Positions 38,319-62,394 are shown, numbered from the stretch's first letter. The stretch is 64,000 bases of DNA from a bacterium (GCA_046757025.1 JBHHXN010000003.1:35248-99247), one strand, 5' to 3'. Notes: a model not told the origin generated them from the sequence alone. Numbers and translations: made by a program.

Positions 38319-38333
38319 GGCATATTAATTGCC
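38319..38333 (+). promoter_or_regulatory. Candidate sigma54 (-24/-12) promoter of the kinase/pilus locus
   Basis: GGGCATATTAATTGC matches (T)GGCAYR-N4-TTGC with exact GG-N10-GC spacing, about 70 nt upstream of the first ATG. Confidence 0.5.
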
Positions 38334-38400
38334 TTTCACCTCTTAACCCAGTGTCTACACTTTAAATGAACAACAACGCATCATGAGGAAAACATCTTAG

Positions 38401-40953: not shown

Positions 40954-40964
40954 TTTTATGTCGT

Positions 40965-43643
40965 ATGCCAAAACTGCTCATCAAAAAAAATAACGCCCTC
41001 ATAAAAAAAATATCGGTTCCAACAGATATTTTGGCGTTTACCGTGGGCTCGGAACAGGGCAACGACATCATCATCCAGGATGAAAGTATTTCCTACTTTC
41101 ATTTGCAGTTTGAAAAACAGGACGATGATTACTTTGTCCGTGATTTGCAGAGCCAATGGGGGACTTTTGTGAACGGCAGAAAGATTTCGAATCGCACGAT
41201 ATTGATTGACCAGGATGAAATTGGCATTGGTACTCATAACATTACTTTTTTAAACGCAAAAGCAGAAACAGAAAAAGCGCTGGTTGCGGAAAATCATGAG
41301 TCGGGTCAATTTGCCGGAGAAACCAAGCTCGAAGAACGCATTGCCGGCATTCCTACCCTGAACAGACTGAACTCATGGATCCACAGCGAAGAGTTCAAGA
41401 TGGAGAAGCAGGGTGATTTTTACATCGACCAAAACAACGGCGACGAATTCACAGAAAGCCTCAGCGAAACCGATGAAATTTTACAGTCAACGCAGCCGGA
41501 TCCCTCATTTAATCTCCTCAACCACAACCCAAACGGACCAAATCACGAGCCAAATGAATTTGTCGATGTGCGTGATAATGGCCCAAAGGAGAGCCCGCCG
41601 CCTCAGCTCGATTTCTCACCAGAGCCAAAATTTGAAGCGCCGCCTCTCAAGACTCCGACGCTGGAATTCGAAGACGATTTCAAGGTTAAATTAGAGGAGC
41701 CCATTCAAAAAGCCCGCGCCGTGAATAATTATTTTCTACTGGGCATTTATGGTTATTACACGGGAAGAGTCTTCCGGCTCAAGCATCCGGAAACCAAAAT
41801 CGGCCGTGACCGCAAACTCAACGATATCGTCATTAAGAAAAATTCCAAAGGTAAAATCGATCAGAGCGTGTCGCGCCGCCAGGCTACCATCTTGTCAAAG
41901 GATAATAGATTTTACATTACGGATAAAAGAAGCAAAAGTCGAACGGCCGTCAACCAGCAAAAGCTCGATTTTAACGATGAGATTGAAATCAATCCGGGAG
42001 ATGAAATTGAAATTATCAGCGACCGTAAAAGTCATATTTTGCGTTTGGTGCAAAAAGAGGAATGGGATTTTTCTTTTCCGAAAAAGGCCGGCTCCTGGCA
42101 TCTCCGACACCGAGTCAAAATTCTCAATTTTTATTCCTTACTATTGCTGCTGATTGCTGGGTTTTTTGTGGCTAAATCCATGAACACACTGAACAAAATC
42201 CTCTCAAAGCCGGATCCGTTCTCGGTTTCGGAATCGCTCTGGTACACTGGCGAAATCGATTTAGCCGTGAAGCCGTCATCGACAGCGCAACTTCAAAACT
42301 ACCTGGCCATTGCGGATTTTAACGGCGACCGGACGCTCGATCTCGTTTATATTGATGAAAACGAGCATTTGATTTGCATCAATGGCAAATCGAAACAACC
42401 GTTGTGGCAAATCTCGGAATTTAAAACGTTTTCAGACTATTCTATCACCATCGAGGACTTGAATAACAACCATCTGCCGGACATCATCGTGGTCTCGAAA
42501 GACTTTCGCATCCGCGCCATCGATGGCAACTGGGGCATCGAAATTTGGAAAAGCCGCATTCTGGCAGGTCCGTTAACCGGGCCGCCGGTGGTGGGCGATT
42601 TTAACGGCGACGGTTTCAAGGACCTGGCCGTGGCTTCCACGGAGAACCTGGTGTACATCGGCTTTTCAGGATTAAAAAATTCACACTGGATTCAAATTCC
42701 AGTGGAAGCGCAAATTCGCTCCATCCTGACAGCCAGCGATATCACCGGCGATGGATTCCGGAACTTGGTGCTTGGAACGGAGTCCGGCAAAATTTTGGTC
42801 ATCGACGGTGTCAAGCAAACGGTTTCTGAGGAAATCAATATCAACGAAGAGCTGAATAAAGCCAGTGGCAGCTACTTTCAGGACAACCAGATCCGCTATC
42901 CCATAGCTACCGGTGATTTGAACGGCGATACGGTGAACGACCTGCTCATTTGCACACTGCAAGGCAACCTCATTGCTATCGACGGCCTGACCCTGGAAAG
43001 GATGTGGTACGACCTCGCCAGCGACAAAGTGAAATTTGAGCATCCCACTTTTCCCAGCATCGTCATGGGAGATTTGGACGGGGACCATTTACCGGACGTG
43101 GTTTCCCTGACTCCGGATGGCAGATTACGTGCGATAAAAGGCGTGGGTGAGCGCAAAGACCGTAAAATGTTACTCTGGGAAATTCCGGCCATTGAAACCG
43201 AATATTTTGTGGGACAGCCCGTGCTGGCCGATTTCAACAAAAATGGCACCGTGGACGTGGTGGCGGTCAACAACCTGGGGGGATTGTTTATTTTCGAAGG
43301 CGTCACTGGCGATATTCTCTGGAAAAAAAAACAGAGCGAACATGCGATCATAGGCTCACCGCTCATCGGAGATTTGGATACGGATAGTCATCTGGATATC
43401 CTCACATTGCGAGCCAATGGCGATTTTGTAAAATATACCACAAACAGCTTAACCCTGGATGGCTCCGTATTCTGGGGCCAGATGTTCGGAAACGGTCGCC
43501 ATAACAGCCGATCATTTTACAAGGTGTATCATACGTCACAGCACTATGTGATTATCTGTTTATCTTTGATGGTCGTCGCTACCGTAATGGGCTTACAAAT
43601 TTTCTTTAGAAAAAAGAGAAAAAAGTTAAGTCAAATCCAGTAA
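40965..43643 (+). CDS. FHA-FHA-TM-FG-GAP(VCBS) beta-propeller-TM membrane protein (paralog 1)
   Basis: FHA1 (ISYFH, DLQSQWGTFVNG), FHA2 (KIGRD, SVSRRQ), TM, many DFNGDG/DLNGD/DLDGD loops, C-terminal TM followed by RKKRKK. Confidence 0.88.
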   Translation: MPKLLIKKNNALIKKISVPTDILAFTVGSEQGNDIIIQDESISYFHLQFEKQDDDYFVRDLQSQWGTFVNGRKISNRTILIDQDEIGIGTHNITFLNAKAETEKALVAENHESGQFAGETKLEERIAGIPTLNRLNSWIHSEEFKMEKQGDFYIDQNNGDEFTESLSETDEILQSTQPDPSFNLLNHNPNGPNHEPNEFVDVRDNGPKESPPPQLDFSPEPKFEAPPLKTPTLEFEDDFKVKLEEPIQKARAVNNYFLLGIYGYYTGRVFRLKHPETKIGRDRKLNDIVIKKNSKGKIDQSVSRRQATILSKDNRFYITDKRSKSRTAVNQQKLDFNDEIEINPGDEIEIISDRKSHILRLVQKEEWDFSFPKKAGSWHLRHRVKILNFYSLLLLLIAGFFVAKSMNTLNKILSKPDPFSVSESLWYTGEIDLAVKPSSTAQLQNYLAIADFNGDRTLDLVYIDENEHLICINGKSKQPLWQISEFKTFSDYSITIEDLNNNHLPDIIVVSKDFRIRAIDGNWGIEIWKSRILAGPLTGPPVVGDFNGDGFKDLAVASTENLVYIGFSGLKNSHWIQIPVEAQIRSILTASDITGDGFRNLVLGTESGKILVIDGVKQTVSEEININEELNKASGSYFQDNQIRYPIATGDLNGDTVNDLLICTLQGNLIAIDGLTLERMWYDLASDKVKFEHPTFPSIVMGDLDGDHLPDVVSLTPDGRLRAIKGVGERKDRKMLLWEIPAIETEYFVGQPVLADFNKNGTVDVVAVNNLGGLFIFEGVTGDILWKKKQSEHAIIGSPLIGDLDTDSHLDILTLRANGDFVKYTTNSLTLDGSVFWGQMFGNGRHNSRSFYKVYHTSQHYVIICLSLMVVATVMGLQIFFRKKRKKLSQIQ

Positions 43644-43690
43644 ACTTATTCAGCCATCAAATTACTTGTTTTTGTAAGCGGCTTCATTTT

Positions 43691-45052
43691 ATGCAAGAGG
43701 GTAAAATACAAATTAACACATCTGCTTACAGCGATGTTGGCACAGTTCGTAAGACCAACGAAGACAGTTATTTCATTTCAAAAGATGAAAGCCTGATCAT
43801 TGTTTGCGATGGTATGGGCGGCGCGGTGGCAGGCGGTTTGGCCAGTAAAATTGCGGTGGAAACCATCAAAGACATCTTTTACGGTTTGGAAGTGGAATAT
43901 GTCGGAAAGTTATTTCACGACATCGACAAACGCTTTTCCAGCAAAAGCCGTCTGTTGATCGCGGCCGTGCGTCTGGCAAACAGAAGACTGTTCAACATGG
44001 CCATGAAATTTCCAAAACTGCGGGGCATGGGAACCACGGTCGTGGCGCTGACCATCGACCACAGCGTGGCGACGATGGTGCATGTGGGGGACAGCCGGAT
44101 TCTCCGCTACAGCGGCGGTCAGGTTTTCCAGCTGACAGAAGATCATTCCTGGCTGAATGAGCTTATTGAAGACAACGAGATCAACGAGGAGCAGATCGAG
44201 ACTTTTTCACAAAAAAACGTCATCACGCGCGCATTAGGCACCGCGCCCACCGTGAAAATCGACATTCACAGCGAAAAATACAAAAAAGATGACATTTACA
44301 TTTTGTGCACCGACGGTCTGCACAACTCCGTGAAAAGTCAGGACATCAAAAAGTGTTTACAAAAAAATAGCGATTCGCTGCATACGGTGACGAAAAAACT
44401 CATCGAAAAAGCCAAAGTACGGGACGGCTCCGACAACATTACCACCGCGGTGGTACGGGTTAATCAGAACAGCAACAATTCGGATGCCGCATGTGTTTCA
44501 GCTACCATTCCCAATGAGGACGAAAAAATAGAAACCAGGGAAGATAAATTCATCCAGGAACGATATGGAGATTCTAAACAGAATGTGACCCACAAACCCC
44601 ATTTGACCATGAATTTTCAACAAAAATTGAGAATGGCCGGTATCATACTGGTCATCGCCTTATTCAGTTTTTTACTGGGCGTCAAATTGAACGCGTCGAA
44701 ACCCATTCCCGCATCGACACGGATGCCGGCCATTGAAAGCACCCTCAATAGCCAAAGCGGCCATAGCGGGAGCTCAAATATTCCGGCCACTGGCAAACAG
44801 CGCACGCAGCCCGGCGCGGTAATTAAACGCAGCGCCCTGACAAAAAATGCGGTGTTAGCCATCGTGTTTTTCAACAGCACACAGGATTTTGTCGATGCCC
44901 GCATGGATGAGCGCAGTCTGGTGCTGGATAAATTGTATCCGTACCAAGACGGGGGTAATTACAACAATTTCTCGATCTTTGTGATCGATTCAACCAACAA
45001 CGTAATTTACAAAACCTCCGGCTTTCAACTGCCGGATTTATTTGCAATGTAA
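43691..45052 (+). CDS. Stp1/PstP-like PP2C Ser/Thr phosphatase with TM and extracytoplasmic tail
   Basis: SDVGTVRKTNED, VCDGMGG, GMGTT, HVGDSR, QLTEDHS, NVITRALG, LCTDGL, GSDNIT; TM GIILVIALFSFLLGV. Confidence 0.93.
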   Translation: MQEGKIQINTSAYSDVGTVRKTNEDSYFISKDESLIIVCDGMGGAVAGGLASKIAVETIKDIFYGLEVEYVGKLFHDIDKRFSSKSRLLIAAVRLANRRLFNMAMKFPKLRGMGTTVVALTIDHSVATMVHVGDSRILRYSGGQVFQLTEDHSWLNELIEDNEINEEQIETFSQKNVITRALGTAPTVKIDIHSEKYKKDDIYILCTDGLHNSVKSQDIKKCLQKNSDSLHTVTKKLIEKAKVRDGSDNITTAVVRVNQNSNNSDAACVSATIPNEDEKIETREDKFIQERYGDSKQNVTHKPHLTMNFQQKLRMAGIILVIALFSFLLGVKLNASKPIPASTRMPAIESTLNSQSGHSGSSNIPATGKQRTQPGAVIKRSALTKNAVLAIVFFNSTQDFVDARMDERSLVLDKLYPYQDGGNYNNFSIFVIDSTNNVIYKTSGFQLPDLFAM

Positions 45053-45445
45053 ATGTTTCTATTTATTGCACCCATTGCGTTAATGGCCGTTTTTCTGGCC
45101 GTGGGCCTGGTCTGGTTTACGCCAGAATGGCGAGCGAATTATTTTTTGTGGAGAGGCAACACCCGCAAAGCGCGAAAAATTTATGAATACCTGCTGATCC
45201 AGAATCCGGAAAAAGTACATTTGTACCGCAAGCTCGGGCAAATTTATATTATGGAAAAGCGGCACGATCGCAAAGCCATCAGAGTATTTGAAGTGATCGT
45301 CAAACTTAAAATACCGTTTGAGTGGCTGGACGACATTTTACCTTTAGTGGCAAAATATTATATCATCGAAGGCCGGAAAGATTCCGAAGCCATCAAACTG
45401 ATCGAAAGAGTGGTTGACCAGGAACTCGAAAAATTGACCAGATAA
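45053..45445 (+). CDS. Small membrane-anchored TPR-like protein
   Basis: N-terminal TM; helical repeats LGQIYIMEKRHDRKAI and VAKYYIIEGRKDSEAI; starts immediately after the PP2C stop. Confidence 0.7.
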   Translation: MFLFIAPIALMAVFLAVGLVWFTPEWRANYFLWRGNTRKARKIYEYLLIQNPEKVHLYRKLGQIYIMEKRHDRKAIRVFEVIVKLKIPFEWLDDILPLVAKYYIIEGRKDSEAIKLIERVVDQELEKLTR

Positions 45446-45459
45446 CAGAACGATTCAAC

Positions 45460-47946
45460 ATGTTGACATTAGAAGCCAAACGACACAAAGAACTCATCAT
45501 CATGATCATGGCTCTTGGAGAAGCCTATCTTGAAAAAGGGCTGTATGAGGACGCCGAAAAAAGATTTCAGCAGCTGATCGATTTCAAAGTGGCCAACAGA
45601 CGCATTTATACCAGTTTGAGCAAAGCTTACATCGGACTGAAAAAATCCGACAGAAAGGCCATTGAAATTTACCAAAAAGCCATCCGCTACGACTCCAGCA
45701 ACGCGGAAATTTACGATGTTCTGGCCGCGCAATTTCTGAAAGACGGACGCACAGATCCGGAAGCCGTCACGATTTTCGAAAGCACTCTGAATTTTAATTC
45801 GGCGCACTTCCATGCGATTGTGGAGCATCTGGCGAGCATTTATTTCAGACAGGCAGAATACGAAAAATGCAAATCCGTAACCGAAATGCTTTTGTCCAAA
45901 TCGGGTTTTAGACCAAAGCCCTTTTCATTTTTTATAAACAGCTGCTGGAAAACCGGTAATTTGAACGACGCCATTCTCCAGCTCAAAAAGCTCATAGACG
46001 TATCTGAAAATAATACCATGTTGTTGAAAAACCTTTGCATCACTTATTTAGAAAAAATGTTCAACGCAGAAGTCACGCAGCAGGAGGTCCGTTTCAGCCA
46101 CATCGATCGCCAGCTGGTAAACGACTATTTGGACAAAAATATTCATTTTGGAAAATTGCAGGATCTCAGTCTGTATCTGGATTTAAAGCGTTTTCTATCG
46201 GACACCGATTACTGGAGCCTGCCGCAACCGGCAGAAATGGAAGACGTCGAAAGCGATTACGTTTATCACGACAAAGAGCAAGAGTCGGCTTATGCTAAAG
46301 CCAAATCAGGCAAAAAAATCGCGTTCAATCTTAAACAGGAAATATTCGACAAGCTGAGCGCCTTTGAATCGCTCACGGGCCAAACCCTGGTGGAGCATTC
46401 CAATCTGACTTATGAAGATTTCAAAAAAGAAGGCGCCGCCATATTTACGGATGCCAAACGGGAAATAAATCCACTAAAAATTCCCGAACAGACCGAAATT
46501 CTCTTGACCATCGCCCTGGCCAACTACGAGCATTTGAGCACGCACTACGGAGAAGAAAACCTGCAGCAAATCCGTAAAAAATTCAACGTCATTTTAGCCG
46601 ATATTCTGGAAGCGTTTAAAATATACCACATCTTTGGTGCGTCGAACGGATTTATCATTTTTACCGATGACGTAGTTTCCGCAGCTTCCATCGCCGTGAA
46701 AGTGCTGAACAAATTAAATCGTCACAATTTCATCAGCGAAGCCAAAGACGAAATTCATCTCACCATCGGGATTCACCATGCCCGAGAGGGGTTTGCGGAT
46801 AACAACGTGTACACCATCAAAGATCTTTCCACCGGCCTGAAAATCGCCATCGTGAACGACCGCGACCTGACGGCGGAGGATCGGGATATTTACGGTAAAA
46901 TCTTTCAAAGAACCGATCGCATTTTTTTGAGCGGCAAAGCTTACCGTGAAATTAAAAGCGCCAACCGTTTCAAAGTCAACACCGTGGGGCAGTTCAAGCT
47001 CAAATATTTAAAAGAGAATTTGATATTGCACGAAATCGCCTGGAGGAATCCCATCGATGATTTGCGATTTGGCTACATCAAAAAATTGGGTCGGTTTGAC
47101 CTGCTGGCGGAGCTGGGCAGCAAGGGCGCCGTGAAGATTTTCAAGGCCAAAGATTCCACGCTGCAGCGGTTCGTCATTTTGAAAGTCATTCAGTCGGAAG
47201 TGTTCAATTCGCTGCCGCCGGACAACCCGCAAAAAATGCAGTTTTATCAGACCGCGCGCTCGTTGGGACAAATGAGCCACCCAAACATCGCCAACATTTA
47301 CGAAGTCAATGAAGACCAGAGACTGACTTACATCGCCAGGGAGTTTGTGGAGGGAGTCCCCATCGATGAAATTTTTAAAAACGGCAATCCATTCAATCCG
47401 GAACGCCTGATAAAAATCATCTACCAGATTTGCAAAGGGCTGCAATATTGTCATCGCTCCGGCTTTTATCACCTGAACCTCAATCCGCACAATTTATTCA
47501 TCGCGTTGAACGACGAAATCAAAATCATGGATTTTTTGATTCCGGCCACGCTGTTGTACGGATACGACAATTTGAAGGAGCACAATCCGCAAATCTATTA
47601 CATGTCGCCGGAACAAATTCACGGCAACCGGGGGGATGCGCGCAGCGATATTTTCTCGCTGGGGGTAATTTTGTATCAGACGGTCACTCAGATGCATCCT
47701 TTTGCCGGTAAAAATATGCAGGATACCATTCACGCTATTTTGAATTCCAAACCCCAGGCGCCCATGGAATTAAATCCGCGTGTGCCGAAATTTTGTGAGG
47801 CGTTTATTCTCAAGTGCCTTGCCAAGAGTCCGGACCGAAGATTTCAATCGGTGGAACAAATGGTGGATTTGCTAAAAAAGACTTTTGAAGGTAGTTTATT
47901 TTCGAACTTCAGTTATCAAATTGCGCAATCGCGAGATTCATATTGA
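45460..47946 (+). CDS. TPR + degenerate class III nucleotide-cyclase-like domain + Ser/Thr pseudokinase
   Basis: N-terminal TPRs; cyclase-like fold (HLTIGIHH, IFLSGKAYREI, VGQFKLK) without the metal-binding Asps; kinase fold with ILKVI, HPNI, YMSPEQ, SDIFSLG but HLNLNPHN and DFL. Confidence 0.8.
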   Translation: MLTLEAKRHKELIIMIMALGEAYLEKGLYEDAEKRFQQLIDFKVANRRIYTSLSKAYIGLKKSDRKAIEIYQKAIRYDSSNAEIYDVLAAQFLKDGRTDPEAVTIFESTLNFNSAHFHAIVEHLASIYFRQAEYEKCKSVTEMLLSKSGFRPKPFSFFINSCWKTGNLNDAILQLKKLIDVSENNTMLLKNLCITYLEKMFNAEVTQQEVRFSHIDRQLVNDYLDKNIHFGKLQDLSLYLDLKRFLSDTDYWSLPQPAEMEDVESDYVYHDKEQESAYAKAKSGKKIAFNLKQEIFDKLSAFESLTGQTLVEHSNLTYEDFKKEGAAIFTDAKREINPLKIPEQTEILLTIALANYEHLSTHYGEENLQQIRKKFNVILADILEAFKIYHIFGASNGFIIFTDDVVSAASIAVKVLNKLNRHNFISEAKDEIHLTIGIHHAREGFADNNVYTIKDLSTGLKIAIVNDRDLTAEDRDIYGKIFQRTDRIFLSGKAYREIKSANRFKVNTVGQFKLKYLKENLILHEIAWRNPIDDLRFGYIKKLGRFDLLAELGSKGAVKIFKAKDSTLQRFVILKVIQSEVFNSLPPDNPQKMQFYQTARSLGQMSHPNIANIYEVNEDQRLTYIAREFVEGVPIDEIFKNGNPFNPERLIKIIYQICKGLQYCHRSGFYHLNLNPHNLFIALNDEIKIMDFLIPATLLYGYDNLKEHNPQIYYMSPEQIHGNRGDARSDIFSLGVILYQTVTQMHPFAGKNMQDTIHAILNSKPQAPMELNPRVPKFCEAFILKCLAKSPDRRFQSVEQMVDLLKKTFEGSLFSNFSYQIAQSRDSY

Positions 47947-48089
47947 TAAACGGTGATTATGATAAAAATTATTAACAAAACAAGATATCCGGCCACCACC
48001 GGACCGGCAAGGAGGTGATCGAGTAATTCCGGGGGCAATTAACCAACATCTCATGAATAACAGAAACCGAAAACGAAGGAGATTCAACT

Positions 48090-48503
48090 ATGGGACAACA
48101 ACAACTCTTACTAATCGTACTGAGCGCTATCATTGTGGGGATAGCCATCGTCGTTGGTATTAATTTGGTTACTACCAGCGCCGGGCAGGCCAACTTTGAC
48201 GCGGTGATGCAAGACCTGATAACCCTTGGAGAAAGAGCCAGAGAATGGTACCGCAAACCAGCCTTATCCGGTGGCGGCGGCAACTCTTTCGCTGCTCTGA
48301 CCAACGATGCGGCCATGAACAGCCTGTTAGGATGGCCGTCAAGCAATGAAAACGGCACCTATTCCGTGCAAACGGCCGGAAGTGCGACTTCCGTGACGTT
48401 CCAAGGAATAGGTGTGGAAGATTTGGACGCCAATGGCACTTTATTAAACATCAGCGTTACGGCCTATCGAGATAGCCTGGTAACCACTATCAACGACCGA
48501 TAA
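48090..48503 (+). CDS. Probable major type IV pilin-like protein lacking a prepilin leader
   Basis: MGQQQLLLIVLSAIIVGIAIVVGINL hydrophobic helix, 137 aa, strong AAGGAGA RBS, directly upstream of pilC/pilB/pilT; no G-FxxxE motif and no Cys. Confidence 0.7.
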   Translation: MGQQQLLLIVLSAIIVGIAIVVGINLVTTSAGQANFDAVMQDLITLGERAREWYRKPALSGGGGNSFAALTNDAAMNSLLGWPSSNENGTYSVQTAGSATSVTFQGIGVEDLDANGTLLNISVTAYRDSLVTTINDR

Positions 48504-48510
48504 GGATTCA

Positions 48511-48546
48511 TTCAAGGCGGGTGCCATGCAAACCACCCGCCTTGAA
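48511..48546 (+). promoter_or_regulatory. 13-bp stem-loop between the pilin gene and pilC (mRNA stabiliser or attenuator)
   Basis: TTCAAGGCGGGTG-10 nt-CACCCGCCTTGAA; no following T-tract on either strand. Confidence 0.6.
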
Positions 48547-48572
48547 AAATGAACTTTCTCAAGAAAAAGATT

Positions 48573-49916
48573 ATGCCTGAATATCGATACACCGGCGTGA
48601 GCATCACCGGCAAACCCATCCAGGGGGTGGTGTTTAGCCCGGATAGCAACACCATCAAAAGCAAATTAAATGATCTGGTCAAGGCCAAAGGCGTTCGCAT
48701 CAAGACCATCGAGAAAAAGTGTGTCTATATTTATAAAATTCAAAAGGGGGTTGAAAAGCCCATTTACGGCGAACAAAAAGCCTTCACTGGCGAAGAGCTG
48801 CGAAATGCCCTGATCAAAATGGGCTACAAAGTCCATTATGTTCGCAAAAAGTGGTTCGATGTCAAATTAAAAGTGCCCTACAAAGATCTGGTGCTGTTCA
48901 TTCGGATTTGTGCGGATTTGCTGAAAGAGAAATTTCCTTACGACGAAATTTTAACGCTGGTCAGCAACGACACCGAAAACAGAAGACTGCGGGAAACCAT
49001 CCGCGACATCCAAAAAGATTTGAAAGCCGGCAACGAGGGGCAGGTGGTTTACAGCAAACACGTGGATGTTTTGGGTAAATTCACTTCGCACATGCTGGCG
49101 GTGGCCTCCACCAGCGGGAATATGGCCGTTATCTATGAGAACACCGCCAAATTCCTGGAAAGAGAAGCGGAATTCAAAAACAAATTGCGGACGGTTCTGG
49201 TCATGCCGGTGGTGGTAACCATTGCCATGATACTGGCGATGGCTTTTTATGTCATGTATATTTTTCCCAAAATGACCGGCTTGCTGACGAAATATAAAAT
49301 CGACATTCCACCCATGACCCGGATGACCATGGATCTCAGCAATTTTTTGTCGGATCACTATCTCCTACTCATACTGGCGACGGTAACGCCGGTTTTACTC
49401 GTTCTTTATTGGCTGCGTACGGATAAAGGACGGTATTGGTTCGACAGCACCATTATTCGCATGCCGGTCATCGGTTCGTTGCTGCACAAATCCAGCATCG
49501 AGATTTTTGCCAGAGTGTTCTCGGCTCTGTACAGTACTTCTGGTGAAAACATCACGGCCATTCGCATCGCGGCGGAATCGTGCAGAAATAAGTTCATCGA
49601 AAAACAGATTACCGGTCTGGTGATCCCGCGCATGTTGAAAGAGGGCAAGAGTTTTGTGGAGTGTTTAAGCCGGGCAAATTGCTTTACGCTCACGGCCATC
49701 AGTCGGTTTAAGTCGGGCGAGGAATCCGGCACCTTGCGCGAAAGCGCCATTCAATTAGCGAATTACTATGAAAATGAAACGTCACATAAAATGCAAAGAC
49801 TGGTGGACTTGATAAATATCATTGTCTCGGTGTTAATTACCCTGATGATCATTGCCTTAACCCTGGTATCTTCAGAGATTGGATTCGTCAGTCCTCCTTC
49901 ACCTTTAACAAGATAA
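48573..49916 (+). CDS. pilC: Type IV pilus/T2SS platform protein, PilC/GspF family
   Basis: MPEYRYTG..ITGKPIQG, two T2SSF domains (SGNM...YENTAKFLERE; GEESGTL), three TM segments. Alternative start at 48549. Confidence 0.9.
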   Translation: MPEYRYTGVSITGKPIQGVVFSPDSNTIKSKLNDLVKAKGVRIKTIEKKCVYIYKIQKGVEKPIYGEQKAFTGEELRNALIKMGYKVHYVRKKWFDVKLKVPYKDLVLFIRICADLLKEKFPYDEILTLVSNDTENRRLRETIRDIQKDLKAGNEGQVVYSKHVDVLGKFTSHMLAVASTSGNMAVIYENTAKFLEREAEFKNKLRTVLVMPVVVTIAMILAMAFYVMYIFPKMTGLLTKYKIDIPPMTRMTMDLSNFLSDHYLLLILATVTPVLLVLYWLRTDKGRYWFDSTIIRMPVIGSLLHKSSIEIFARVFSALYSTSGENITAIRIAAESCRNKFIEKQITGLVIPRMLKEGKSFVECLSRANCFTLTAISRFKSGEESGTLRESAIQLANYYENETSHKMQRLVDLINIIVSVLITLMIIALTLVSSEIGFVSPPSPLTR

Positions 49917-49926
49917 AAAGACGACT

Positions 49927-51750
49927 ATGGCAGACAAAGGATCGATAACAGCAGAAATCAACATCCAGGCCCCCATACGCGGCCTCGGGCGGTTGTCCGA
50001 AGCGCTCATAAACCGCGGCATCATAACCGAAGATATGATTCAACGAGCGGTAGATATTCAGAGCCGGGAACCGCGCTCAACCAAGCGTAAATTGCTGGAT
50101 ATTTTGATAGCGGATCTGAACGTGGAGCGCCATTCCGTCTATATCGAAATGGCGCGTCTGTACGGATTTCAGGTCATCGATTTGTCCGAGGGTAAAATCG
50201 ATCGCGAACGCATTGAATTCATCAAGGAAATCATCTACGGCATGCCGGAAGAGATCTCCAATGAATTGCTGCACAACAAAATTTTGCCGTTTAAATGGCA
50301 TGAATATAAACGCAATGTGCTGATCATGGTCACCGGCGACCCCACCAACCCGCGCATTCACGATCTGGCGAAAAAGTTAGACATCGCCGACATTGATATC
50401 GCTTACGGTAAAATTGAACGAATCGAAGAGCTCATTCACGAAATTTTTTATTCCAACAACGAGTTTCTGCAGAAAATTTTCGATGAAGCTCAGGAAATCG
50501 AGGTTTTCGAAGACGACTCCCGCCAGATCGATGAAGAGGCGCTGGACGCCGAAATCAACAAAAGCCGCCTGACCAACTTGATCGAGGGCATGCTGGTGGA
50601 AGCGGTCAGAAAGGGCGCCAGCGATATTCACATCATCCCCAAAGAGAGCAACGTTACCGAATTCTATTTCCGGGTGGATGGCAAGCTGCAGCCCTGGTTC
50701 GCGCAAACCGAGATCAAACCCGAAGCGGTGGTGGCGGTGATCAAAGACCGCGCCGTCAACATCGACCGCTTCGACCGTGCCATCGCACAGGACGGATTTA
50801 TCCAGCGCAAAATCGACGGGTTTTACATTCGATTCCGGGTATCGGTCATCCCCATTGTCGGCGCGGAATTCGATCGCCGATTTGAGAGCGTGGTGATCCG
50901 AATTCTGGACGACCGCAAAGTGATCACCGACCTGGACAAAATCGGCTTACAACATCAAGCGCTGGCGGATTTTAAAAAAGCCATCGAGCAACCGCAAGGC
51001 ATGGTGATTCTTACCGGCCCCACTGGCAGCGGCAAAAGCACCACCCTGGTAGCCGCGCTCAGCCATGTAATGGATGCCAGCAAAAATGTTTTAACGGTGG
51101 AAGAACCGGTGGAATATCTGATCAGCGGAGCGCGCCAAGTCAAGCTCAATCCCAAGCTAAACTTTGACAACGCCTTGCGCTCCATTTTGCGGCACGATCC
51201 CGACATCGTCATGGTGGGGGAAATCCGCGATCTGAAGTCGGCTGAAATCGCCATCTCCCTGGCCAACACCGGGCATTTGACTTTTTCGACCCTGCATACC
51301 AACGACGCGGTGAGCGCAGTGGCGCGACTATACATGTTAGGCGTGGAGCCGTTCCTCATTGCCAACGCCATCAACCTGGTGATGGCGCAGCGTCTGGTTC
51401 GTCGGTTGTGTGAAGAATGCAAACGTATCAATGAAAACCCCAACGCCGAAATGCTGCTGCGTTTGGGATTTACCAAAGCCGAAATCGCTGAAACCACCTT
51501 TTACGATGCCGTAGGCTGCAACAATTGCTTTGACGGTTACAAAGGCCGCATCGCCATCAGCGAAGCGTTGCTGTTCAACAAAGAAATTCGAGCCGAGATC
51601 CTGCGCGCCAAAGATGAAATCGATGACGAGATGCTTAGAAACATCGGTCAGGAAAACGGCATGGTACCGCTAAGAGATTCCGGCAAAGAACGCATCAAGA
51701 AAGGCGTCACCACTTTAAAGGAAATCATCGGTACCACCACGGAACAATAG
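49927..51750 (+). CDS. pilB: Assembly ATPase, PilB/GspE family
   Basis: ASDIHI, GPTGSGKST, TVEEPVE, LRHDPDIVMVGEIRD, TGHLTFSTLHTN, CEEC..CNNC Zn motif, GYKGRIAI. Confidence 0.93.
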   Translation: MADKGSITAEINIQAPIRGLGRLSEALINRGIITEDMIQRAVDIQSREPRSTKRKLLDILIADLNVERHSVYIEMARLYGFQVIDLSEGKIDRERIEFIKEIIYGMPEEISNELLHNKILPFKWHEYKRNVLIMVTGDPTNPRIHDLAKKLDIADIDIAYGKIERIEELIHEIFYSNNEFLQKIFDEAQEIEVFEDDSRQIDEEALDAEINKSRLTNLIEGMLVEAVRKGASDIHIIPKESNVTEFYFRVDGKLQPWFAQTEIKPEAVVAVIKDRAVNIDRFDRAIAQDGFIQRKIDGFYIRFRVSVIPIVGAEFDRRFESVVIRILDDRKVITDLDKIGLQHQALADFKKAIEQPQGMVILTGPTGSGKSTTLVAALSHVMDASKNVLTVEEPVEYLISGARQVKLNPKLNFDNALRSILRHDPDIVMVGEIRDLKSAEIAISLANTGHLTFSTLHTNDAVSAVARLYMLGVEPFLIANAINLVMAQRLVRRLCEECKRINENPNAEMLLRLGFTKAEIAETTFYDAVGCNNCFDGYKGRIAISEALLFNKEIRAEILRAKDEIDDEMLRNIGQENGMVPLRDSGKERIKKGVTTLKEIIGTTTEQ

Positions 51751-51794
51751 TGCAATGAATTTCCAGCATAATTATTTTAGCAGATTTGAATGAA

Positions 51795-53027
51795 ATGAAT
51801 TTTCAATCTTCGAAACAAATCGTAGAAAAAGTTGCCAAAGCCATCAAGGCGCACCTGATTGGCGAACAGCGCTGGCAGTTTATCAGCAACCTGCTGGAGG
51901 ATCAATCCGAAGAAATCAAAATCCTTTTAAAGCAGCACTTCGATACGTTTTTATCTCGCATGAAAGAATTGGACGCTTCGGACATCGATCTCGGTGGACC
52001 GGGCTGCACGCAAAAAATCTGGTTTCGTGTTCACGGAAATAAATCGCCGGACAGCGCGCTGGGTCAGTACACCATCGACGAAACCGATCTTTTGATTTTG
52101 AACATATTAACCGAAAGCGAGCGCAAGCAGCTTTTCAGTCAGCGCAATCTGGACTTCTCTTATCGGGTGCTGGATTCCGAAAAGAATTACTGGACGCGCT
52201 TTCGAGCCAACGTTTATTTTGATCTCACGCATCTGGCGGTGAACATGCGGCGCATCAACGACGAAGTCATCCCGTTTACCAAACTGGGTTTCCATGAAGA
52301 TGTGGCCAAAACTCTGAGCTTAAAATATCAGAAATCGGGCCTGATTCTGGTTACCGGCATCACCGGCTCGGGCAAGAGCACCACTCTGGATTCCATCATT
52401 GACGCCAACAACCGCACCATGGAATCGCACATCGTCATCATAGCCGATCCCATCGAGTACGTGCATTCTCCCATCAAATCCATCGTCAAGCACCGGGAAA
52501 TTGGCCGCGACGTGCATTCGTTTAAAGAAGGCACCATTCAGGCCTTGCGCCAGGATCCCGATATCATCATGATTGGGGAAATGCGGGATGCCGAGACCAT
52601 CATGACGGTTTTGGAAGTGGTGGACAGTGGTCACAAGGTGTTTTCTACATTACACACCTCGTCTGCGGTGGAAAGCATCGATCGCATTTTGGGAGAAATC
52701 CCTTCAAATGAGCAGCACCGCATTCGAACACGCTTGGCCGATGTCATAAGCTGTGTGATATCTCAGAAACTCATTCCCAGCCAGGAAGGTGAACGGGTGC
52801 TGGCCAAAGAAGTCATGACCGCCACCCCCGCCATTAAAGCCGCTATTCGAAATGACAACACGGGCGAGATATATCAGATCATCCACCAATCCGGCGAAAT
52901 TGGCATGAACACCATGGAACAGGACCTGGCCAGATTGTATTCGGAAAACGTGATTTCCTATTTTGAAGCTTATATAAATGCCAACAACAAGAAAAGATTA
53001 GAAGAACTGATTAAATTGAATTATTGA
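51795..53027 (+). CDS. pilT: Retraction ATPase, PilT/PilU family, with an N-terminal extension
   Basis: ASDIDL, RFRANVY, GITGSGKST, DPIEY, LRQDPDIIMIGEMRD, SGHKVFSTLHT, AIKAAIR; no Zn motif. Confidence 0.88.
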   Translation: MNFQSSKQIVEKVAKAIKAHLIGEQRWQFISNLLEDQSEEIKILLKQHFDTFLSRMKELDASDIDLGGPGCTQKIWFRVHGNKSPDSALGQYTIDETDLLILNILTESERKQLFSQRNLDFSYRVLDSEKNYWTRFRANVYFDLTHLAVNMRRINDEVIPFTKLGFHEDVAKTLSLKYQKSGLILVTGITGSGKSTTLDSIIDANNRTMESHIVIIADPIEYVHSPIKSIVKHREIGRDVHSFKEGTIQALRQDPDIIMIGEMRDAETIMTVLEVVDSGHKVFSTLHTSSAVESIDRILGEIPSNEQHRIRTRLADVISCVISQKLIPSQEGERVLAKEVMTATPAIKAAIRNDNTGEIYQIIHQSGEIGMNTMEQDLARLYSENVISYFEAYINANNKKRLEELIKLNY

Positions 53028-56203: not shown

Positions 56204-56217
56204 TTTTGGACGTACAA

Positions 56218-57426
56218 ATGAATAAATTTCTCACTGCAATCGATATTCTTTTCATACTCTTGCTCATGATGGCGCTGACCGAGGATAAAAGTTGGGCACA
56301 AGAATCCGTGCCACGGCAAATCTCACCACAGGAATTTGTGACCTTCGATAAAAGTCTGCCCATGAAAACCGCTCTCAGCATTTTAAGCCAGTTCAGTTCG
56401 CGCTACGATGGCAAAATTATCATCGATCCCCTGGGCCACAACATGCCCATCGGGGTGATGGTCAACAACATGTACTGGAAACGCGCTTTAGAATATATTC
56501 TGCGTTCCAATTTATTAAAATACAACGAGAAAGAAAGATATTTTGAAGTGATGCCGTTGACGCAAACCGAGGAGACTGAAGAGGGCGATAAGATTACCAC
56601 CAACACCAAAGAAATTGAAATTAACGCCCTGTTTTTTGAAGCGGATTATTCCGCCTTGCGTGAGGCTGGCATTGACTGGTCGGTGCTCCATAACGGCAAA
56701 GTAGCCGTCAGCGGTAATTTTGGCTCCGAGGTCACCAAAGATCTGTTCCGGGCGCAGTATCGCAACAGTTTTCGCCAGTGGGATGTGTTCACGCTGCTGC
56801 GCACCTTTGAAACCATGGACAAAGGCGAAGTCATCGCCAATCCTCAGATCAAGGTGATGGACCGGCAGGAGGGCAAAATCAAAGTAGGTACCAACTTCTT
56901 TCTAACCACGCGGGATTTTGCCGGCAACACGCGTTTTACCGAATACGAATCCGGTATTATTTTGACGGTCACGCCCACCGTCATGGGCACCCGAGATTCG
57001 ACCTATATCCACCTGGAGTTGAAAACCGAGCGCAGCGCGGTGGCACCCGATCCCGTGGCCGTGACCAAAGCCATCACCGAAAGCAACACCCAGGTATTGC
57101 TGGTGAATGGCGAAGAAACGGTGATCGCGGGGCTTTTTTCCAATGAGGTGAAAAATACCCGCAGAGGCATCCCGATTTTGAAAGATCTGCCTCCCTGGTT
57201 TTTTGGATTGCGCTATCTCTTCGGATACACTTCCAAAGAAGTCAAGAAAAAGGAACTGATCATCATTTTACAAGCCACGGTGCTGCCCACTGTGGAAGAA
57301 CGGTTGAGTATGCGTCTGGGCCAAAAAAATTACATCGAACAAAAAAGACTGGAATTCAAAAGGCGTTTGCAAAAATTGAAAAGCAGCAAAAGCTCCAACG
57401 GCGCATACTATCGAAGAAAAAAATAA
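56218..57426 (+). CDS. pilQ: Short outer-membrane secretin (PilQ/GspD family)
   Basis: Signal peptide, N0-like VNNMYWKRALEYIL, EIEINA..FE..GIDW, GEVIANPQI, ESGIILTVTP, NGEETVIAGL, GIPILKDLP, ELIIILQA. Track start is 56206. Confidence 0.88.
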   Translation: MNKFLTAIDILFILLLMMALTEDKSWAQESVPRQISPQEFVTFDKSLPMKTALSILSQFSSRYDGKIIIDPLGHNMPIGVMVNNMYWKRALEYILRSNLLKYNEKERYFEVMPLTQTEETEEGDKITTNTKEIEINALFFEADYSALREAGIDWSVLHNGKVAVSGNFGSEVTKDLFRAQYRNSFRQWDVFTLLRTFETMDKGEVIANPQIKVMDRQEGKIKVGTNFFLTTRDFAGNTRFTEYESGIILTVTPTVMGTRDSTYIHLELKTERSAVAPDPVAVTKAITESNTQVLLVNGEETVIAGLFSNEVKNTRRGIPILKDLPPWFFGLRYLFGYTSKEVKKKELIIILQATVLPTVEERLSMRLGQKNYIEQKRLEFKRRLQKLKSSKSSNGAYYRRKK

Positions 57427-57936: not shown

Positions 57937-57951
57937 TGCAGGTTGATAAAT

Positions 57952-58524: not shown

Positions 58525-58539
58525 ATCGATAAAAAGAAA

Positions 58540-62379: not shown

Positions 62380-62394
62380 TCAGAGGAAAAGGCC

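What the first reader, a model, noticed from the sequence alone, without database searches (positions are those of the whole stretch)
45460..47946. Double pseudo-enzyme: TPR - degenerate cyclase - pseudokinase
Seen: the kinase domain keeps the VAIK-equivalent (ILK), HPNI and YMSPEQ. The catalytic loop reads HLNLNPHN (47470-93; HRD Asp replaced by Asn), DFG is DFL (47530) and the G-loop is GSKGAVK. The middle domain (about 46490-47040) follows the class III AC/GC pattern, but the two metal-binding Asp positions read TIALAN and GASNG. Known: the HRD Asp and the two cyclase Asps are required for catalysis. Inference: a catalytically dead scaffold or nucleotide sensor placed directly before the pilin gene, possibly linking cyclic-nucleotide or ATP binding to the phospho-switch.
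Basis: partly seen in the sequence, partly recalled or inferred. Interest (0 to 1): 0.7.

Follow-up and report, generated by a model that had tools for sequence, protein, structure and literature searches.

The report
Tandem pseudo-cyclase pseudokinase scaffold protein
A conserved 828-residue protein of KSB1/Calditrichota bacteria joins a TPR solenoid to a cyclase-like and a kinase-like domain that have both lost their catalytic residues; it always sits in a kinase-FHA-phosphatase operon beside type IV pilus genes, so it is probably a non-catalytic adaptor, not an enzyme.

Summary
ORF 45460-47946 (+) encodes TPR solenoid (res 10-247), a disordered linker, a class III cyclase homology domain (CHD, 341-530) and a Hanks-type kinase domain (545-812). 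The CHD assignment, which Pfam misses, is now tested. An AlphaFold model (pLDDT 84) matches only class III adenylyl/guanylyl cyclases in the PDB (best Ma1120, TM 0.87), and a family profile finds true cyclases in 1.84 billion proteins.

All six canonical cyclase residues are replaced (A352, N396, F392, V450, S457, K461). The kinase lacks the HRD Asp (N673), the alphaC Glu, the DFG Gly and the G-loop glycines, but keeps K575, N678 and D691.

In 35 orthologs (44-65% identity) no sequence has Asp at the HRD position (N in 33), and N396 is present in 33. The inactivation is therefore ancient and fixed, not decay.

Gene order is the same in all 11 long loci: STK-PEGA, 2xFHA membrane protein, PP2C, small TM-TPR, this gene, pilin-like gene, PilC, PilB.

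Best reading: a non-catalytic, probably dimeric, membrane-tethered adaptor in a Thr-phosphorylation switch that controls a type IV pilus-like machine. Nucleotide binding is possible but untested. I found no published description. I rate it a new variant of known kinds, moderately interesting.

The parts
45460..47946 (+). Whole gene: TPR - pseudo-cyclase (CHD) - pseudokinase, 828 aa
   Evidence: ORF. 35 full-length orthologs at 44-65% identity. Full-length AF2 model: pLDDT 84.8, pTM 0.68.
45487..46200 (+). TPR / alpha-solenoid, res 10-247 (13 helices)
   Evidence: Pfam TPR_11, TPR_2, TPR_8 and TPR_19 reach their gathering scores. Helices H10-247 in the model have pLDDT about 90.
46222..46317 (+). 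Disordered, poorly conserved linker, res 255-286
   Evidence: pLDDT <50. Mean pairwise identity 22%, against 49-57% for the domains.
46330..46479 (+). Conserved pre-CHD segment, res 291-340. Contains the invariant L-T317-Y-E-D320-F motif (nt 46405-46422), a candidate pThr / FHA-docking site or a helix cap
   Evidence: T317 and D320 are invariant in 35/35 orthologs. The segment has moderate pLDDT between two disordered stretches. The motif is absent from the extended family.
46480..47049 (+). Degenerate class III cyclase homology domain, res 341-530. Substitutions at canonical positions: metal Asp1 -> A352 (nt 46513); substrate Lys -> F392; metal Asp2 -> N396 (nt 46645); RIGIH Arg -> T435; transition-state Asn -> S457; transition-state Arg -> K461
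   Evidence: AF2 model: pLDDT 83.9, pTM 0.81. Foldseek PDB top 50 are all class III cyclases, best 5d0h_B at E 4.9e-9, TMt 0.87. Profile against PDB: best hit Ma1120. Profile against 1.84e9 proteins: 174 hits, and 33 of 75 scanned distant hits carry Pfam Guanylate_cyc. Column-by-column comparison with 63 canonical CHDs.
47050..47091 (+). Short conserved CHD-kinase junction, res 531-544 (W-R-N-P-I-D-D-L-x-F-G-x-I-K-K-L-G-R-F)
   Evidence: Joint most conserved stretch with the C-terminal tail: 68% pairwise identity. Also kept in the extended family. Forms helix 531-537 in the model.
47092..47895 (+). Pseudokinase domain, res 545-812. Kept: K575 (nt 47182), N678, D691 (nt 47530), SPE. Lost: G-loop glycines, alphaC Glu (T598), HRD Asp (N673, nt 47476), catalytic-loop Lys (N675, in this genome only), DFG Gly (L693)
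   Evidence: Pfam Pkinase E 2e-38. PknB alignment. Foldseek best hit PknB, TMt 0.87. Residue counts over 35 orthologs.
47896..47943 (+). Conserved C-terminal tail, res 813-828 (LFSNFSYQIAQSRDSY), predicted unstructured
   Evidence: 65-70% identity across orthologs but pLDDT <50. Specific to the narrow family.
38401..40953 (+). Neighbour: membrane Ser/Thr kinase with PEGA and CarboxypepD_reg domains (STK1). Catalytic residues present (HQD, DFG, VAIK Lys, alphaC Glu)
   Evidence: Pfam. Motif alignment. Syntenic in 11/11 long loci.
40965..43643 (+). Neighbour: FHA-FHA-TM-FG-GAP beta-propeller membrane protein
   Evidence: Pfam FHA E 5e-30 with two stretches, plus FG-GAP. Syntenic.
43691..45052 (+). 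Neighbour: PP2C (Stp1-type) Ser/Thr phosphatase
   Evidence: NCBIfam Stp1_PP2C_phos scores 234.5 bits, above its 230-bit cutoff. Syntenic.
45053..45445 (+). Neighbour: small TM-anchored TPR protein (130 aa). Fused to the pseudokinase protein in two orthologs
   Evidence: Weak TPR hits. P0013 (964 aa) and P0019 (969 aa) carry it as an N-terminal extension at 52-57% identity. Syntenic.
48090..48503 (+). Neighbour: pilin-like protein (137 aa). N-terminus MGQQQLLLIVLSxIIVG is invariant
   Evidence: Alignment of 3 orthologs. No Pfam or NCBIfam hit. Found downstream in 10 of 11 long loci.
48549..53027 (+). Neighbours: PilC/GspF-like platform (48549-49916), PilB/GspE-like ATPase (49927-51750), PilT-like ATPase (51786-53027)
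   Evidence: Pfam T2SSF and T2SSE; NCBIfam PilB/GspE/PilC below cutoff. Syntenic.
56206..57426 (+). Neighbour: secretin
   Evidence: Pfam Secretin E 5e-28. Present in L003 and L004.
59833..64000 (+). Second, paralogous STK-PEGA (59833-62379) and second FHA-FHA-TM-FG-GAP gene (from 62395, runs off the window end)
   Evidence: Pfam. Translation. The FHA protein is 826 aa in L041.

Best explanation
SHOWN
- The gene encodes a cytoplasmic three-module protein: a TPR solenoid, a class III cyclase homology domain (CHD) and a PknB-like kinase domain.
- Both enzyme-like domains lack the residues their families need for catalysis.
- These losses are fixed across a family confined to KSB1/Calditrichota.
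- The gene is always the last gene of a tightly packed set: STK-PEGA, 2xFHA membrane protein, PP2C, small TM-TPR. A pilin-like gene, PilC, PilB, a PilT-like ATPase and a secretin follow immediately.

INFERRED MECHANISM
- The protein is a non-catalytic adaptor in a threonine-phosphorylation switch that gates a type IV pilus-like machine.
- The dead CHD serves as a dimerisation module, because class III CHDs are obligate head-to-tail dimers. The short, highly conserved junction holds two pseudokinase domains in a fixed geometry.
- The pseudokinase keeps K575, N678 and D691, so it may still hold ATP-Mg without turnover. It docks onto the membrane STK(s) as an allosteric partner and/or substrate.
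- The phospho-sites created are read by the two-FHA membrane protein. One candidate site is the invariant T317-x-x-D320 motif next to the disordered linker. PP2C erases the marks.
- The TPR solenoid, tethered to the membrane through the small TM-TPR partner, binds machine components such as PilB or PilC.
For: Architecture and fold.

Homology of the middle domain to real cyclases:
- Profile against PDB: top 7 hits are all class III cyclases.
- 174 hits in 1.84e9 proteins. Of 75 distant hits scanned, 33 carry Pfam Guanylate_cyc.

Dead CHD. Columns where 63 canonical relatives have D (46/52), K (53/63), D (57/63), R (57/63), N (36/60) and R (47/58) read A, F, N, T, S and K here.

Dead kinase and fixed substitutions over 35 orthologs:
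- HRD Asp position: N 33, Q 1, K 1, D 0.
- alphaC Glu position: never E.
- DFG Gly position: never G.
- K575, N678 and D691 are each 35/35.
- CHD N396 is 33/35 and K461 is 35/35.

Purifying selection. The CHD (49%) and pseudokinase (57%) are as conserved as, or more conserved than, the TPR (50%), and far more than the linker (22%).

An intact comparator exists. P0131, a kinase-CHD fusion found by the same profile, has every canonical residue in both domains.

Synteny. The order STK, FHA, PP2C, small TPR, this gene, pilin-like, PilC, PilB is the same in 11/11 loci with enough flank. Intergenic gaps are 0-47 nt from 38401 to 47946.

Membrane tether. The small TM-TPR protein is fused to the N-terminus in P0013 and P0019.

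Precedent. The M. tuberculosis MviN pseudokinase is phosphorylated by PknB and then recruits the FHA protein FhaA (PMC12599244).
Against: - No biochemical data exist. Activity, nucleotide binding, dimerisation and partners are all untested.
- No RNA data exist for this organism.
- Conservation of K575, N678, D691 and N673 would also fit a residual or atypical catalytic activity.
- The T317-x-x-D320 motif lies at the N-cap of a predicted helix and may be only a capping box.
- The two fusion proteins could be gene-calling read-throughs.
- The pilus-type cluster is divergent: the PilB and PilC scores fall below NCBIfam cutoffs and no PilM/N/O was recognised. Its output could therefore be secretion or DNA uptake rather than a pilus.
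- More distant family members are not always next to pilus genes.
Confidence: 0.6

Rival explanations
1. Ligand-gated sensor. One or both dead active sites still bind a nucleotide (ATP/GTP, or a cyclic nucleotide in the CHD pocket) without turnover. Occupancy switches the conformation of the adaptor and couples energy or second-messenger status to the phospho-switch. This refines the scaffold model rather than excluding it.
For: - The substitutions at the two key acidic residues are isosteric Asp->Asn and are themselves conserved (N673 33/35, N396 33/35). The ATP/Mg ligands K575, N678 and D691 and the phosphate-facing K461 and K515 (K/R) are invariant or nearly so.
- Positions that matter only for catalysis or dynamics (alphaC Glu, DFG Gly, G-loop, CHD site 1) are free to vary.
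- From general knowledge: HER3 (HRN) and the kinase-homology domains of receptor guanylyl cyclases bind ATP non-catalytically.
Against: - The glycine-rich loop and the K-E salt bridge, which normally position ATP, are gone.
- The CHD has lost both base-specifying residues and the RIGIH Arg.
- No binding data exist, and the pocket geometry could not be inspected with the tools available.
Confidence: 0.3
2. Atypical but active kinase. The domain still phosphorylates a dedicated substrate slowly or by a non-canonical mechanism (HER3-like residual activity, or another residue acting as base).
For: The VAIK Lys, catalytic-loop Asn, DFG Asp, SPE motif and (in 34/35 orthologs) the catalytic-loop Lys are retained. 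The domain is the best conserved large module. The overall fold is PknB-like.
Against: No ortholog has the catalytic Asp (0/35). The G-loop, alphaC Glu and DFG Gly are all lost together. The window's own copy has also lost the catalytic-loop Lys (N675). Two apparently competent STKs are encoded in the same cluster.
Confidence: 0.1
3. The middle domain is a working, or GGDEF-type, nucleotide cyclase.
For: One weak NCBIfam hit to the diguanylate cyclase DgcS at res 347-455, E 0.008. Glu occupies metal site 1 in 29/35 orthologs.
Against: Foldseek and the profile searches return class III cyclases only, not GGDEF. All six canonical class III catalytic residues are replaced. There is no GGDEF/GGEEF motif.
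Confidence: 0.03
4. A recently decayed enzyme gene or pseudogene without function.
For: The window's copy is slightly more degenerate than its orthologs: A352 instead of E, F392 instead of W, N675 instead of K.
Against: The 828-codon ORF is intact. There are 35 full-length orthologs down to 44% identity with the same substitutions and many invariant residues. Synteny is strict. The HxN catalytic loop is shared even with a more distant TPR-CHD-kinase family.
Confidence: 0.01

Closest known systems
M. tuberculosis MviN/MurJ (Rv3910) pseudokinase - PknB - FhaA module (ActPs3 family)
   Same: A bacterial Hanks-type pseudokinase domain works with an active STK and an FHA-domain protein. Phosphorylation of the pseudokinase protein creates an FHA docking site (PMC12599244). 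This is the model I propose here.
   Different: - MviN's pseudokinase lacks the VAIK Lys, HRD Asp and DFG Asp and has no activation loop (10.1101/2025.01.12.632604). The present family keeps the Lys and the DFG Asp.
- The fusion partners differ: a lipid II flippase there, TPR plus a dead cyclase here.
- The regulated process differs: cell wall there, a type IV pilus-like machine here.
Receptor guanylyl cyclases (e.g. GC-A/NPR1): kinase-homology domain + class III cyclase domain
   Same: This is the only well-known architecture that places a pseudokinase next to a class III cyclase domain on one chain. GC-A structures are among the fold and profile hits of the middle domain. The cyclase domain dimerises, and the pseudokinase binds ATP as an allosteric ligand (general knowledge).
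   Different: The domain order is reversed: CHD then kinase here, joined by a 14-residue junction instead of a coiled coil. The cyclase here is also dead. The protein is bacterial and cytoplasmic, and has an N-terminal TPR instead of a receptor ectodomain.
Bacterial kinase-cyclase fusions with intact sites (e.g. P0131; NCBIfam TIGR03903 TOMM kinase/cyclase fusion)
   Same: A Hanks kinase and a class III CHD sit on one polypeptide. P0131 is found by the same CHD profile. TIGR03903 gives a partial hit at E 4.5e-14.
   Different: The order is kinase then CHD. All canonical residues are present in both domains of P0131. The TIGR03903 score of 51 bits is far below its 706-bit cutoff.
Type VI secretion threonine phosphorylation pathway (PpkA - PppA - Fha1, Pseudomonas aeruginosa)
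   Same: A membrane Hanks kinase, a PP2C phosphatase and an FHA protein are encoded inside the gene cluster of an envelope-spanning machine and gate its assembly (general knowledge). The same three parts are adjacent here.
   Different: The machine is a type IV pilus / T2SS-like system, not a T6SS. The FHA protein is a two-FHA membrane protein with an FG-GAP propeller. An extra pseudo-cyclase/pseudokinase adaptor and a second STK-FHA pair are present.
HER3/ErbB3 pseudokinase
   Same: The catalytic-loop Asp is replaced by Asn and the alphaC Glu is lost, while the VAIK Lys and DFG Asp are kept. HER3 binds ATP and acts as an allosteric activator of a partner kinase (general knowledge).
   Different: HER3 is a eukaryotic receptor tyrosine kinase. 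It keeps its glycine-rich loop and the DFG Gly. It is not a close relative: the best homolog and structural match here is PknB.
Seven described bacterial pseudokinase families (ActPs1-3, GLW, CP1, DYD, DLHK)
   Same: These are conserved bacterial Hanks-type domains with degraded catalytic motifs and unknown functions.
   Different: According to the atlas, VAIK-Lys substitution occurs in all seven families, and TPR, where present in bacterial STKs, lies C-terminal to the kinase. Neither paper mentions a cyclase domain. The present family keeps the Lys, has N-terminal TPR plus CHD, and comes from KSB1/Calditrichota MAGs. No direct sequence comparison with their representatives was made.
Archaellum regulatory network of Sulfolobus (ArnA FHA, ArnB vWA, ArnC/ArnD kinases, PP2A)
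   Same: Hanks-type kinases, a phosphatase and an FHA protein control a type IV filament machine (PMC5300886, listed).
   Different: That network is archaeal, regulates transcription, is not encoded as one operon with the machine, and has no pseudokinase or cyclase-like component.

Membership tests
Hanks-type protein kinase superfamily (Pfam PF00069) | Significant match to the kinase-domain profile, and kinase fold | tested here: met
   Pkinase scores 132.6 bits against a 31.7-bit cutoff, res 550-800. Foldseek best hit PknB, TMt 0.87, 29% identity.
Catalytically competent Hanks-type kinase | HRD catalytic Asp | tested here: not met
   N673 in the window. Across 35 orthologs: N 33, Q 1, K 1, D 0.
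Catalytically competent Hanks-type kinase | VAIK Lys paired with the alphaC Glu | tested here: not met
   K575 is invariant, but the Glu position is T598 and is never Glu in the 35 orthologs.
Catalytically competent Hanks-type kinase | DFG motif (metal-binding Asp and Gly) and GxGxxG loop | tested here: not met
   D691 is invariant, but Gly is replaced (L693; never G in orthologs). The G-loop reads GSKGAV, with the second and third Gly positions never G.
Class III nucleotidyl cyclase (cyclase homology domain, Pfam PF00211) | CHD fold and detectable homology | tested here: met
   There is no Pfam hit for the single sequence. The AF2 model matches only class III cyclases, with E down to 4.9e-9 and TMt 0.87. 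The family profile hits Ma1120 and GC-A in the PDB and proteins carrying PF00211.
Class III nucleotidyl cyclase (active enzyme) | Two metal-binding Asp | tested here: not met
   A352 (E 29, A 3, others 3; D 0 of 35) and N396 (N 33, D 1, S 1).
Class III nucleotidyl cyclase (active enzyme) | Substrate-specifying pair and transition-state Asn and Arg | tested here: not met
   Lys -> F392 (W in 30/35). The D/E column is V450. Asn -> S457. Arg -> K461, which is invariant Lys. The RIGIH Arg -> T435.
Class III nucleotidyl cyclase | Head-to-tail dimer | not testable with these tools
   Only monomer predictions are available. Needs multimer modelling or SEC-MALS.
Described bacterial pseudokinase families (ActPs1-3, GLW, CP1, DYD, DLHK) | Family-specific motif degradation (VAIK-Lys substitutions occur in all seven) and their domain architectures | tested here: inconclusive
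   Compared only with the published descriptions. The motif pattern (Lys and DFG Asp kept, HRD Asp lost) and the TPR-CHD N-terminal architecture fit none of them. No sequence comparison with their representatives was possible.
Machine-associated threonine phosphorylation pathway (STK + PP2C + FHA) | Kinase, PP2C phosphatase and FHA protein encoded together with the machine genes | tested here: met
   Pfam and NCBIfam assignments. Identical order in 11/11 long loci.
Machine-associated threonine phosphorylation pathway (STK + PP2C + FHA) | Phospho-Thr dependent FHA binding that controls assembly | not testable with these tools
   Needs phosphoproteomics and binding assays.
Type IV pilus / type IV filament system | Prepilin with class III signal, PilB-type ATPase, PilC platform, secretin | tested here: inconclusive
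   T2SSE, T2SSF and Secretin Pfam hits. PilB, GspE and PilC NCBIfam scores are below cutoff. The pilin-like protein has no family hit and an atypical N-terminus, MG|QQQLLLIVL, without Glu5. No prepilin peptidase or PilMNO was identified in the window.

The most novel reading that the evidence does not exclude
The protein is a dual 'frozen active-site' sensor. Both dead pockets, each carrying a conserved Asp->Asn replacement, still bind nucleotides: ATP-Mg in the pseudokinase, and a purine nucleotide or cyclic nucleotide at the CHD dimer interface. Their occupancy decides whether the dimeric adaptor activates the membrane STKs and exposes its pThr-x-x-D site to the two-FHA membrane protein. In this reading the energy or second-messenger state directly licenses assembly of a type IV pilus-like machine in KSB1/Calditrichota. 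This would be a bacterial counterpart of receptor guanylyl cyclase logic, but with no catalysis left in either domain.
Probability: 0.2. Interest if true: 0.75.

Novelty: new variant of a known kind. Interest (0 to 1): 0.55.

Why it matters
Bacterial pseudokinases are almost unexplored experimentally, and only seven families have been catalogued. None of those carries a cyclase-like domain or keeps this motif pattern.

This is a clean, conserved case in which two different enzyme folds on one chain have both been turned into non-catalytic modules. It sits in a genomic context (STK, two-FHA protein, PP2C, pilus genes) that names its likely partners and output.

It gives a tractable system for three questions:
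- What does a dead cyclase domain do: dimerise, or bind a ligand?
- How do Hanks-type phospho-signalling and FHA readers control type IV filament machines in bacteria? This link is so far documented mainly for the T6SS and the archaeal archaellum.
- How do pseudoenzymes evolve stepwise? The HxN loop is shared with a wider TPR-CHD-kinase family that still keeps the alphaC Glu, the DFG motif and the second cyclase Asp.

It also shows that current annotation ('protein kinase') is misleading for this family.

Tried and rejected
- GGDEF reading of the middle domain (weak DgcS hit): rejected, because the fold and profile searches give only class III cyclases.
- Single-sequence Pfam and NCBIfam scans do not detect the CHD. 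A family profile and a structure model were needed.
- PHROGs scan of the pilin-like and unknown cluster proteins: no hits.
- Sigma-70 promoter and intrinsic terminator scan of 38000-49000: no more sites than in shuffles, so uninformative for operon boundaries.
- Transcription evidence: only four DNA metagenome runs (hydrothermal vent) hold the sequence and no RNA runs do.
- Literature: searches for bacterial pseudokinase + cyclase, for KSB1 + pili + kinase, and for FHA + type IV pilus + PP2C found no description of this family. One query failed on syntax.
- Extending the window beyond 64000 to look for a second pseudokinase paralog after the second STK-FHA pair: the only contig found ends just after the FHA gene, so this stays unresolved.
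- dN/dS was not computed. The closest DNA ortholog is only 65% identical at the protein level, so synonymous sites would be saturated. Per-domain amino-acid conservation was used instead.
- Recent decay or pseudogene: rejected.


Full report
**1. Observation**

ORF 45460-47946 (+) is real: 828 aa with an ATG start.
- GSKGAVK, res 553-559.
- ILK with K575, nt 47182.
- HPNI, res 607-610.
- HLNLNPHN, res 671-678, nt 47470-47493.
- DFL from nt 47530.
- YMSPEQ, res 714-719.
- TIALAN, res 350-355.
- GASNG, res 393-397.

Pfam finds a protein-kinase domain at 550-800 (E 2e-38) and N-terminal TPR repeats. It finds no cyclase domain, even at E<0.1. NCBIfam adds only a weak GGDEF-type hit at res 347-455, E 0.008. 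The kinase and TPR parts were therefore confirmed at once. The 'degenerate cyclase' was still an untested reading.

**2. The kinase domain**

The closest solved relative is M. tuberculosis PknB (E 7e-37). The modelled domain superposes on PknB with TM 0.87. The residue-level alignment gives these states:

| Canonical element | State here |
|---|---|
| G-loop GFGGMS | GSKGAV |
| VAIK Lys | kept (K575) |
| alphaC Glu | Thr598 |
| HRD | HLN (N673) |
| catalytic-loop Lys | N675 |
| catalytic-loop Asn | kept (N678) |
| DFG | DFL (D691 kept) |
| SPE | kept |

By the usual definition, loss of the catalytic Asp, this is a pseudokinase. It keeps the three residues that contact ATP-Mg.

**3. The middle domain**

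I collected 35 full-length orthologs at 44-65% identity. Bit scores fall sharply from 578 to 152 between these and generic TPR-kinases. I aligned residues 285-545 of 33 of them (A2).

- AlphaFold2 on this alignment gives a confident model: pLDDT 83.9, pTM 0.81. Its beta-alpha-beta-beta-alpha-beta core plus C-terminal alpha-beta-beta is the topology of cyclase homology domains.
- Foldseek against the PDB returns class III adenylyl/guanylyl cyclases in all top 50 places. The best is Ma1120 (5d0h_B, E 4.9e-9, target TM 0.87). Rv1900c, CyaB, soluble GC, GC-A and others follow.
- The family profile independently picks Ma1120 and GC-A as its top PDB hits, with marginal E values of 0.025-0.2.
- Against 1.84 billion representative proteins the profile finds 174 proteins at E<=1e-3. 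Of 75 distant hits scanned, 33 carry Pfam Guanylate_cyc.

The middle domain is therefore a class III CHD, not a GGDEF domain.

**4. Catalytic residues of the CHD**

I aligned 63 canonical CHDs found by the profile to the family model.

| Canonical residue (frequency in relatives) | This protein | Orthologs |
|---|---|---|
| metal Asp1 (D in 46/52) | A352 | E 29 of 35, never D |
| substrate Lys (K in 53/63) | F392 | W 30 |
| metal Asp2 (D in 57/63) | N396 | N 33 |
| RIGIH Arg (R in 57/63) | T435 | S 17, A 10, T 6 |
| transition-state Asn (N in 36/60) | S457 | S 21, C 9 |
| transition-state Arg (R in 47/58) | K461 | K 35 of 35 |

All six residues that define an active class III cyclase are replaced. 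A kinase-CHD fusion found in the same search (P0131) has every canonical residue in both domains. This shows what an intact relative looks like.

**5. Is it decay?**

No. Across the 35 orthologs:
- The HRD Asp position is N 33, Q 1, K 1, and never D.
- The alphaC position is never Glu, and the DFG Gly position is never Gly.
- K575, H671, N678, D691, P717 and E718 are invariant.

Mean pairwise identity by region:

| Region | Identity |
|---|---|
| pseudokinase | 57% |
| CHD | 49% |
| TPR | 50% |
| CHD-kinase junction | 68% |
| C-terminal tail | 65% |
| disordered linker | 22% |

A more distant set of TPR-CHD-kinase proteins (750-840 aa) already has the HxN catalytic loop (HGN, HKN, HRN). It often retains the alphaC Glu, the DFG motif and the second cyclase Asp.

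The losses therefore accumulated stepwise and long ago. The two Asp->Asn replacements are themselves under constraint. The window's own copy departs from its family at three positions: A352, F392 and N675.

**6. Whole protein**

The full-length model has pLDDT 84.8. It shows:
- a 13-helix solenoid, res 10-247;
- a disordered linker, res 255-286;
- a short conserved segment containing the invariant L-T317-Y-E-D320-F motif;
- the CHD, strands from 347 to 526;
- a helix at 531-537;
- the kinase domain;
- a conserved but unstructured tail, res 813-828.

No TM segment is present. However, the preceding 130-aa gene (45053-45445) encodes a TM helix plus TPR-like repeats. That gene is fused to the N-terminus of two orthologs, P0013 and P0019, at 52-57% identity. 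This suggests the two proteins form one membrane-tethered unit.

**7. Context**

The gene closes a tightly packed series with gaps of 0-47 nt:
- STK with PEGA and CarboxypepD_reg domains, 38401-40953;
- FHA-FHA-TM-FG-GAP protein, 40965-43643;
- Stp1-type PP2C, 43691-45052;
- small TM-TPR, 45053-45445.

After a 143-nt gap come the following:
- a pilin-like gene, 48090-48503;
- PilC-like, PilB-like and PilT-like genes;
- a SPOR protein and unknown genes;
- a secretin, 56206-57426;
- a second STK-PEGA, 59833-62379;
- a second FHA-FHA membrane protein, from 62395.

Both STKs keep the catalytic Asp (HQD), the DFG motif, the Lys and the Glu.

The order STK, FHA, PP2C, small TPR, this gene, pilin-like, PilC, PilB is identical in all 11 genome loci with enough flank. 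These are KSB1, Calditrichaceae, Caldithrix and unclassified MAGs. The window's organism occurs in hydrothermal-vent metagenomes, and no RNA runs are available.

**8. Mechanism**

Shown: the architecture, the dead sites, the purifying selection and the synteny.

Inferred: the protein is a non-catalytic adaptor of a threonine-phosphorylation switch that controls the adjacent type IV pilus-like machine.
- The CHD most plausibly provides dimerisation, because class III CHDs are obligate dimers.
- The rigid junction fixes two pseudokinase domains relative to each other.
- The pseudokinase may still hold ATP-Mg. It partners with, or is phosphorylated by, the membrane STKs.
- The FHA protein reads the marks and the PP2C erases them.
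- The TPR arm, tethered by the TM-TPR protein, engages machine components.

The MviN-PknB-FhaA module of M. tuberculosis is the precedent for a phosphorylated pseudokinase that recruits an FHA protein (PMC12599244).

I give this composite model 0.6. The structural claim alone (double pseudoenzyme) deserves about 0.9.

Rivals:
- A nucleotide-gated sensor, compatible with the scaffold model: 0.3.
- A weakly active atypical kinase: 0.1.
- A working cyclase: 0.03.
- Decay: 0.01.

**9. Comparison and novelty**

The closest known systems are:
- receptor guanylyl cyclases, which have a pseudokinase plus a cyclase in reversed order with an active cyclase;
- the MviN/FhaA module;
- the T6SS PpkA/PppA/Fha1 pathway;
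- HER3-type HRN pseudokinases.

The published atlas and review of bacterial STKs describe seven pseudokinase families. According to them, VAIK-Lys substitutions occur in all seven, and TPR lies only C-terminal to the kinase. Neither paper mentions a cyclase domain. Further literature searches found no description of this family. NCBI names its members simply 'protein kinase'.

I therefore rate it a new variant of known kinds: a conserved tandem pseudo-cyclase/pseudokinase adaptor tied to a pilus-type locus. It is moderately interesting, chiefly as a defined system for studying bacterial pseudoenzymes and phospho-control of type IV filament machines.

Noticed in passing
window 59833-64000: A second STK-PEGA kinase is followed by a second FHA-FHA-TM-FG-GAP gene, which starts at 62395 and runs off the window (826 aa in L041). 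The pilus-type cluster is therefore flanked by two paralogous kinase-FHA pairs.
   Followed up: partly
L039 3535-12394 (GCA_046758765.1): A distant family member, P0168 (797 aa; HKN loop, DAG, alphaC Glu kept, CHD Asp2 kept), follows STK-PEGA, a 2xFHA protein and a 324-aa TPR protein. Upstream genes of 164, 397, 190 and 376 aa resemble the window's 57445-59739 genes. It may represent a 'second module' paralog that would lie beyond the window's end.
   Followed up: partly
window 45053-45445; proteins P0013, P0019: The small TM-anchored TPR protein is fused to the N-terminus of the pseudokinase protein in two orthologs (964 and 969 aa). This is either a real fusion or a gene-calling read-through, and it was not checked at the DNA level.
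   Followed up: partly
window 48090-48503: The pilin-like protein has an invariant N-terminus, MGQQQLLLIVLSxIIVG. It lacks the usual G|FTLIE prepilin motif and Glu5, and has no Pfam, NCBIfam or PHROGs hit. A GGAG-type ribosome-binding site precedes the ATG.
   Followed up: partly
window 38401-40953 and 59833-62379: Both flanking kinases are non-RD (HQD). Their catalytic loop reads D-I-S-P-S-N, with Ser in place of the usual Lys. They also have a 9-residue insert before the catalytic loop relative to PknB.
   Followed up: no
window 46405-46422 and 47896-47943: Two conserved linear motifs lie outside the folded domains. L-T317-Y-E-D320-F has T and D invariant in 35/35 orthologs and a pTxxD-like spacing. 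The second is the C-terminal tail LFSNF(S/N)YQIAQSRDSY. Both are specific to the narrow family.
   Followed up: partly
window 36600-38099 (-): A GAF-SpoIIE (PP2C-type) phosphatase is encoded divergently upstream. In L003 and L004 it is followed by an HATPase_c_2 anti-sigma-type kinase, a STAS protein and MlaE, which together form a partner-switching module conserved next to the cluster.
   Followed up: no
window 53041-55125, 55307-56203, 57445-59739: Five conserved cluster genes have no family assignment, apart from a C-terminal SPOR domain in the 694-aa protein. They sit where PilM/N/O/P-type alignment proteins would be expected.
   Followed up: no
L007, L011 (record titles): Two orthologous loci come from MAGs labelled 'uncultured Cytophagia bacterium'. 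The other labelled ones are KSB1, Calditrichaceae or Caldithrix, so the label is probably a taxonomic misassignment.
   Followed up: no
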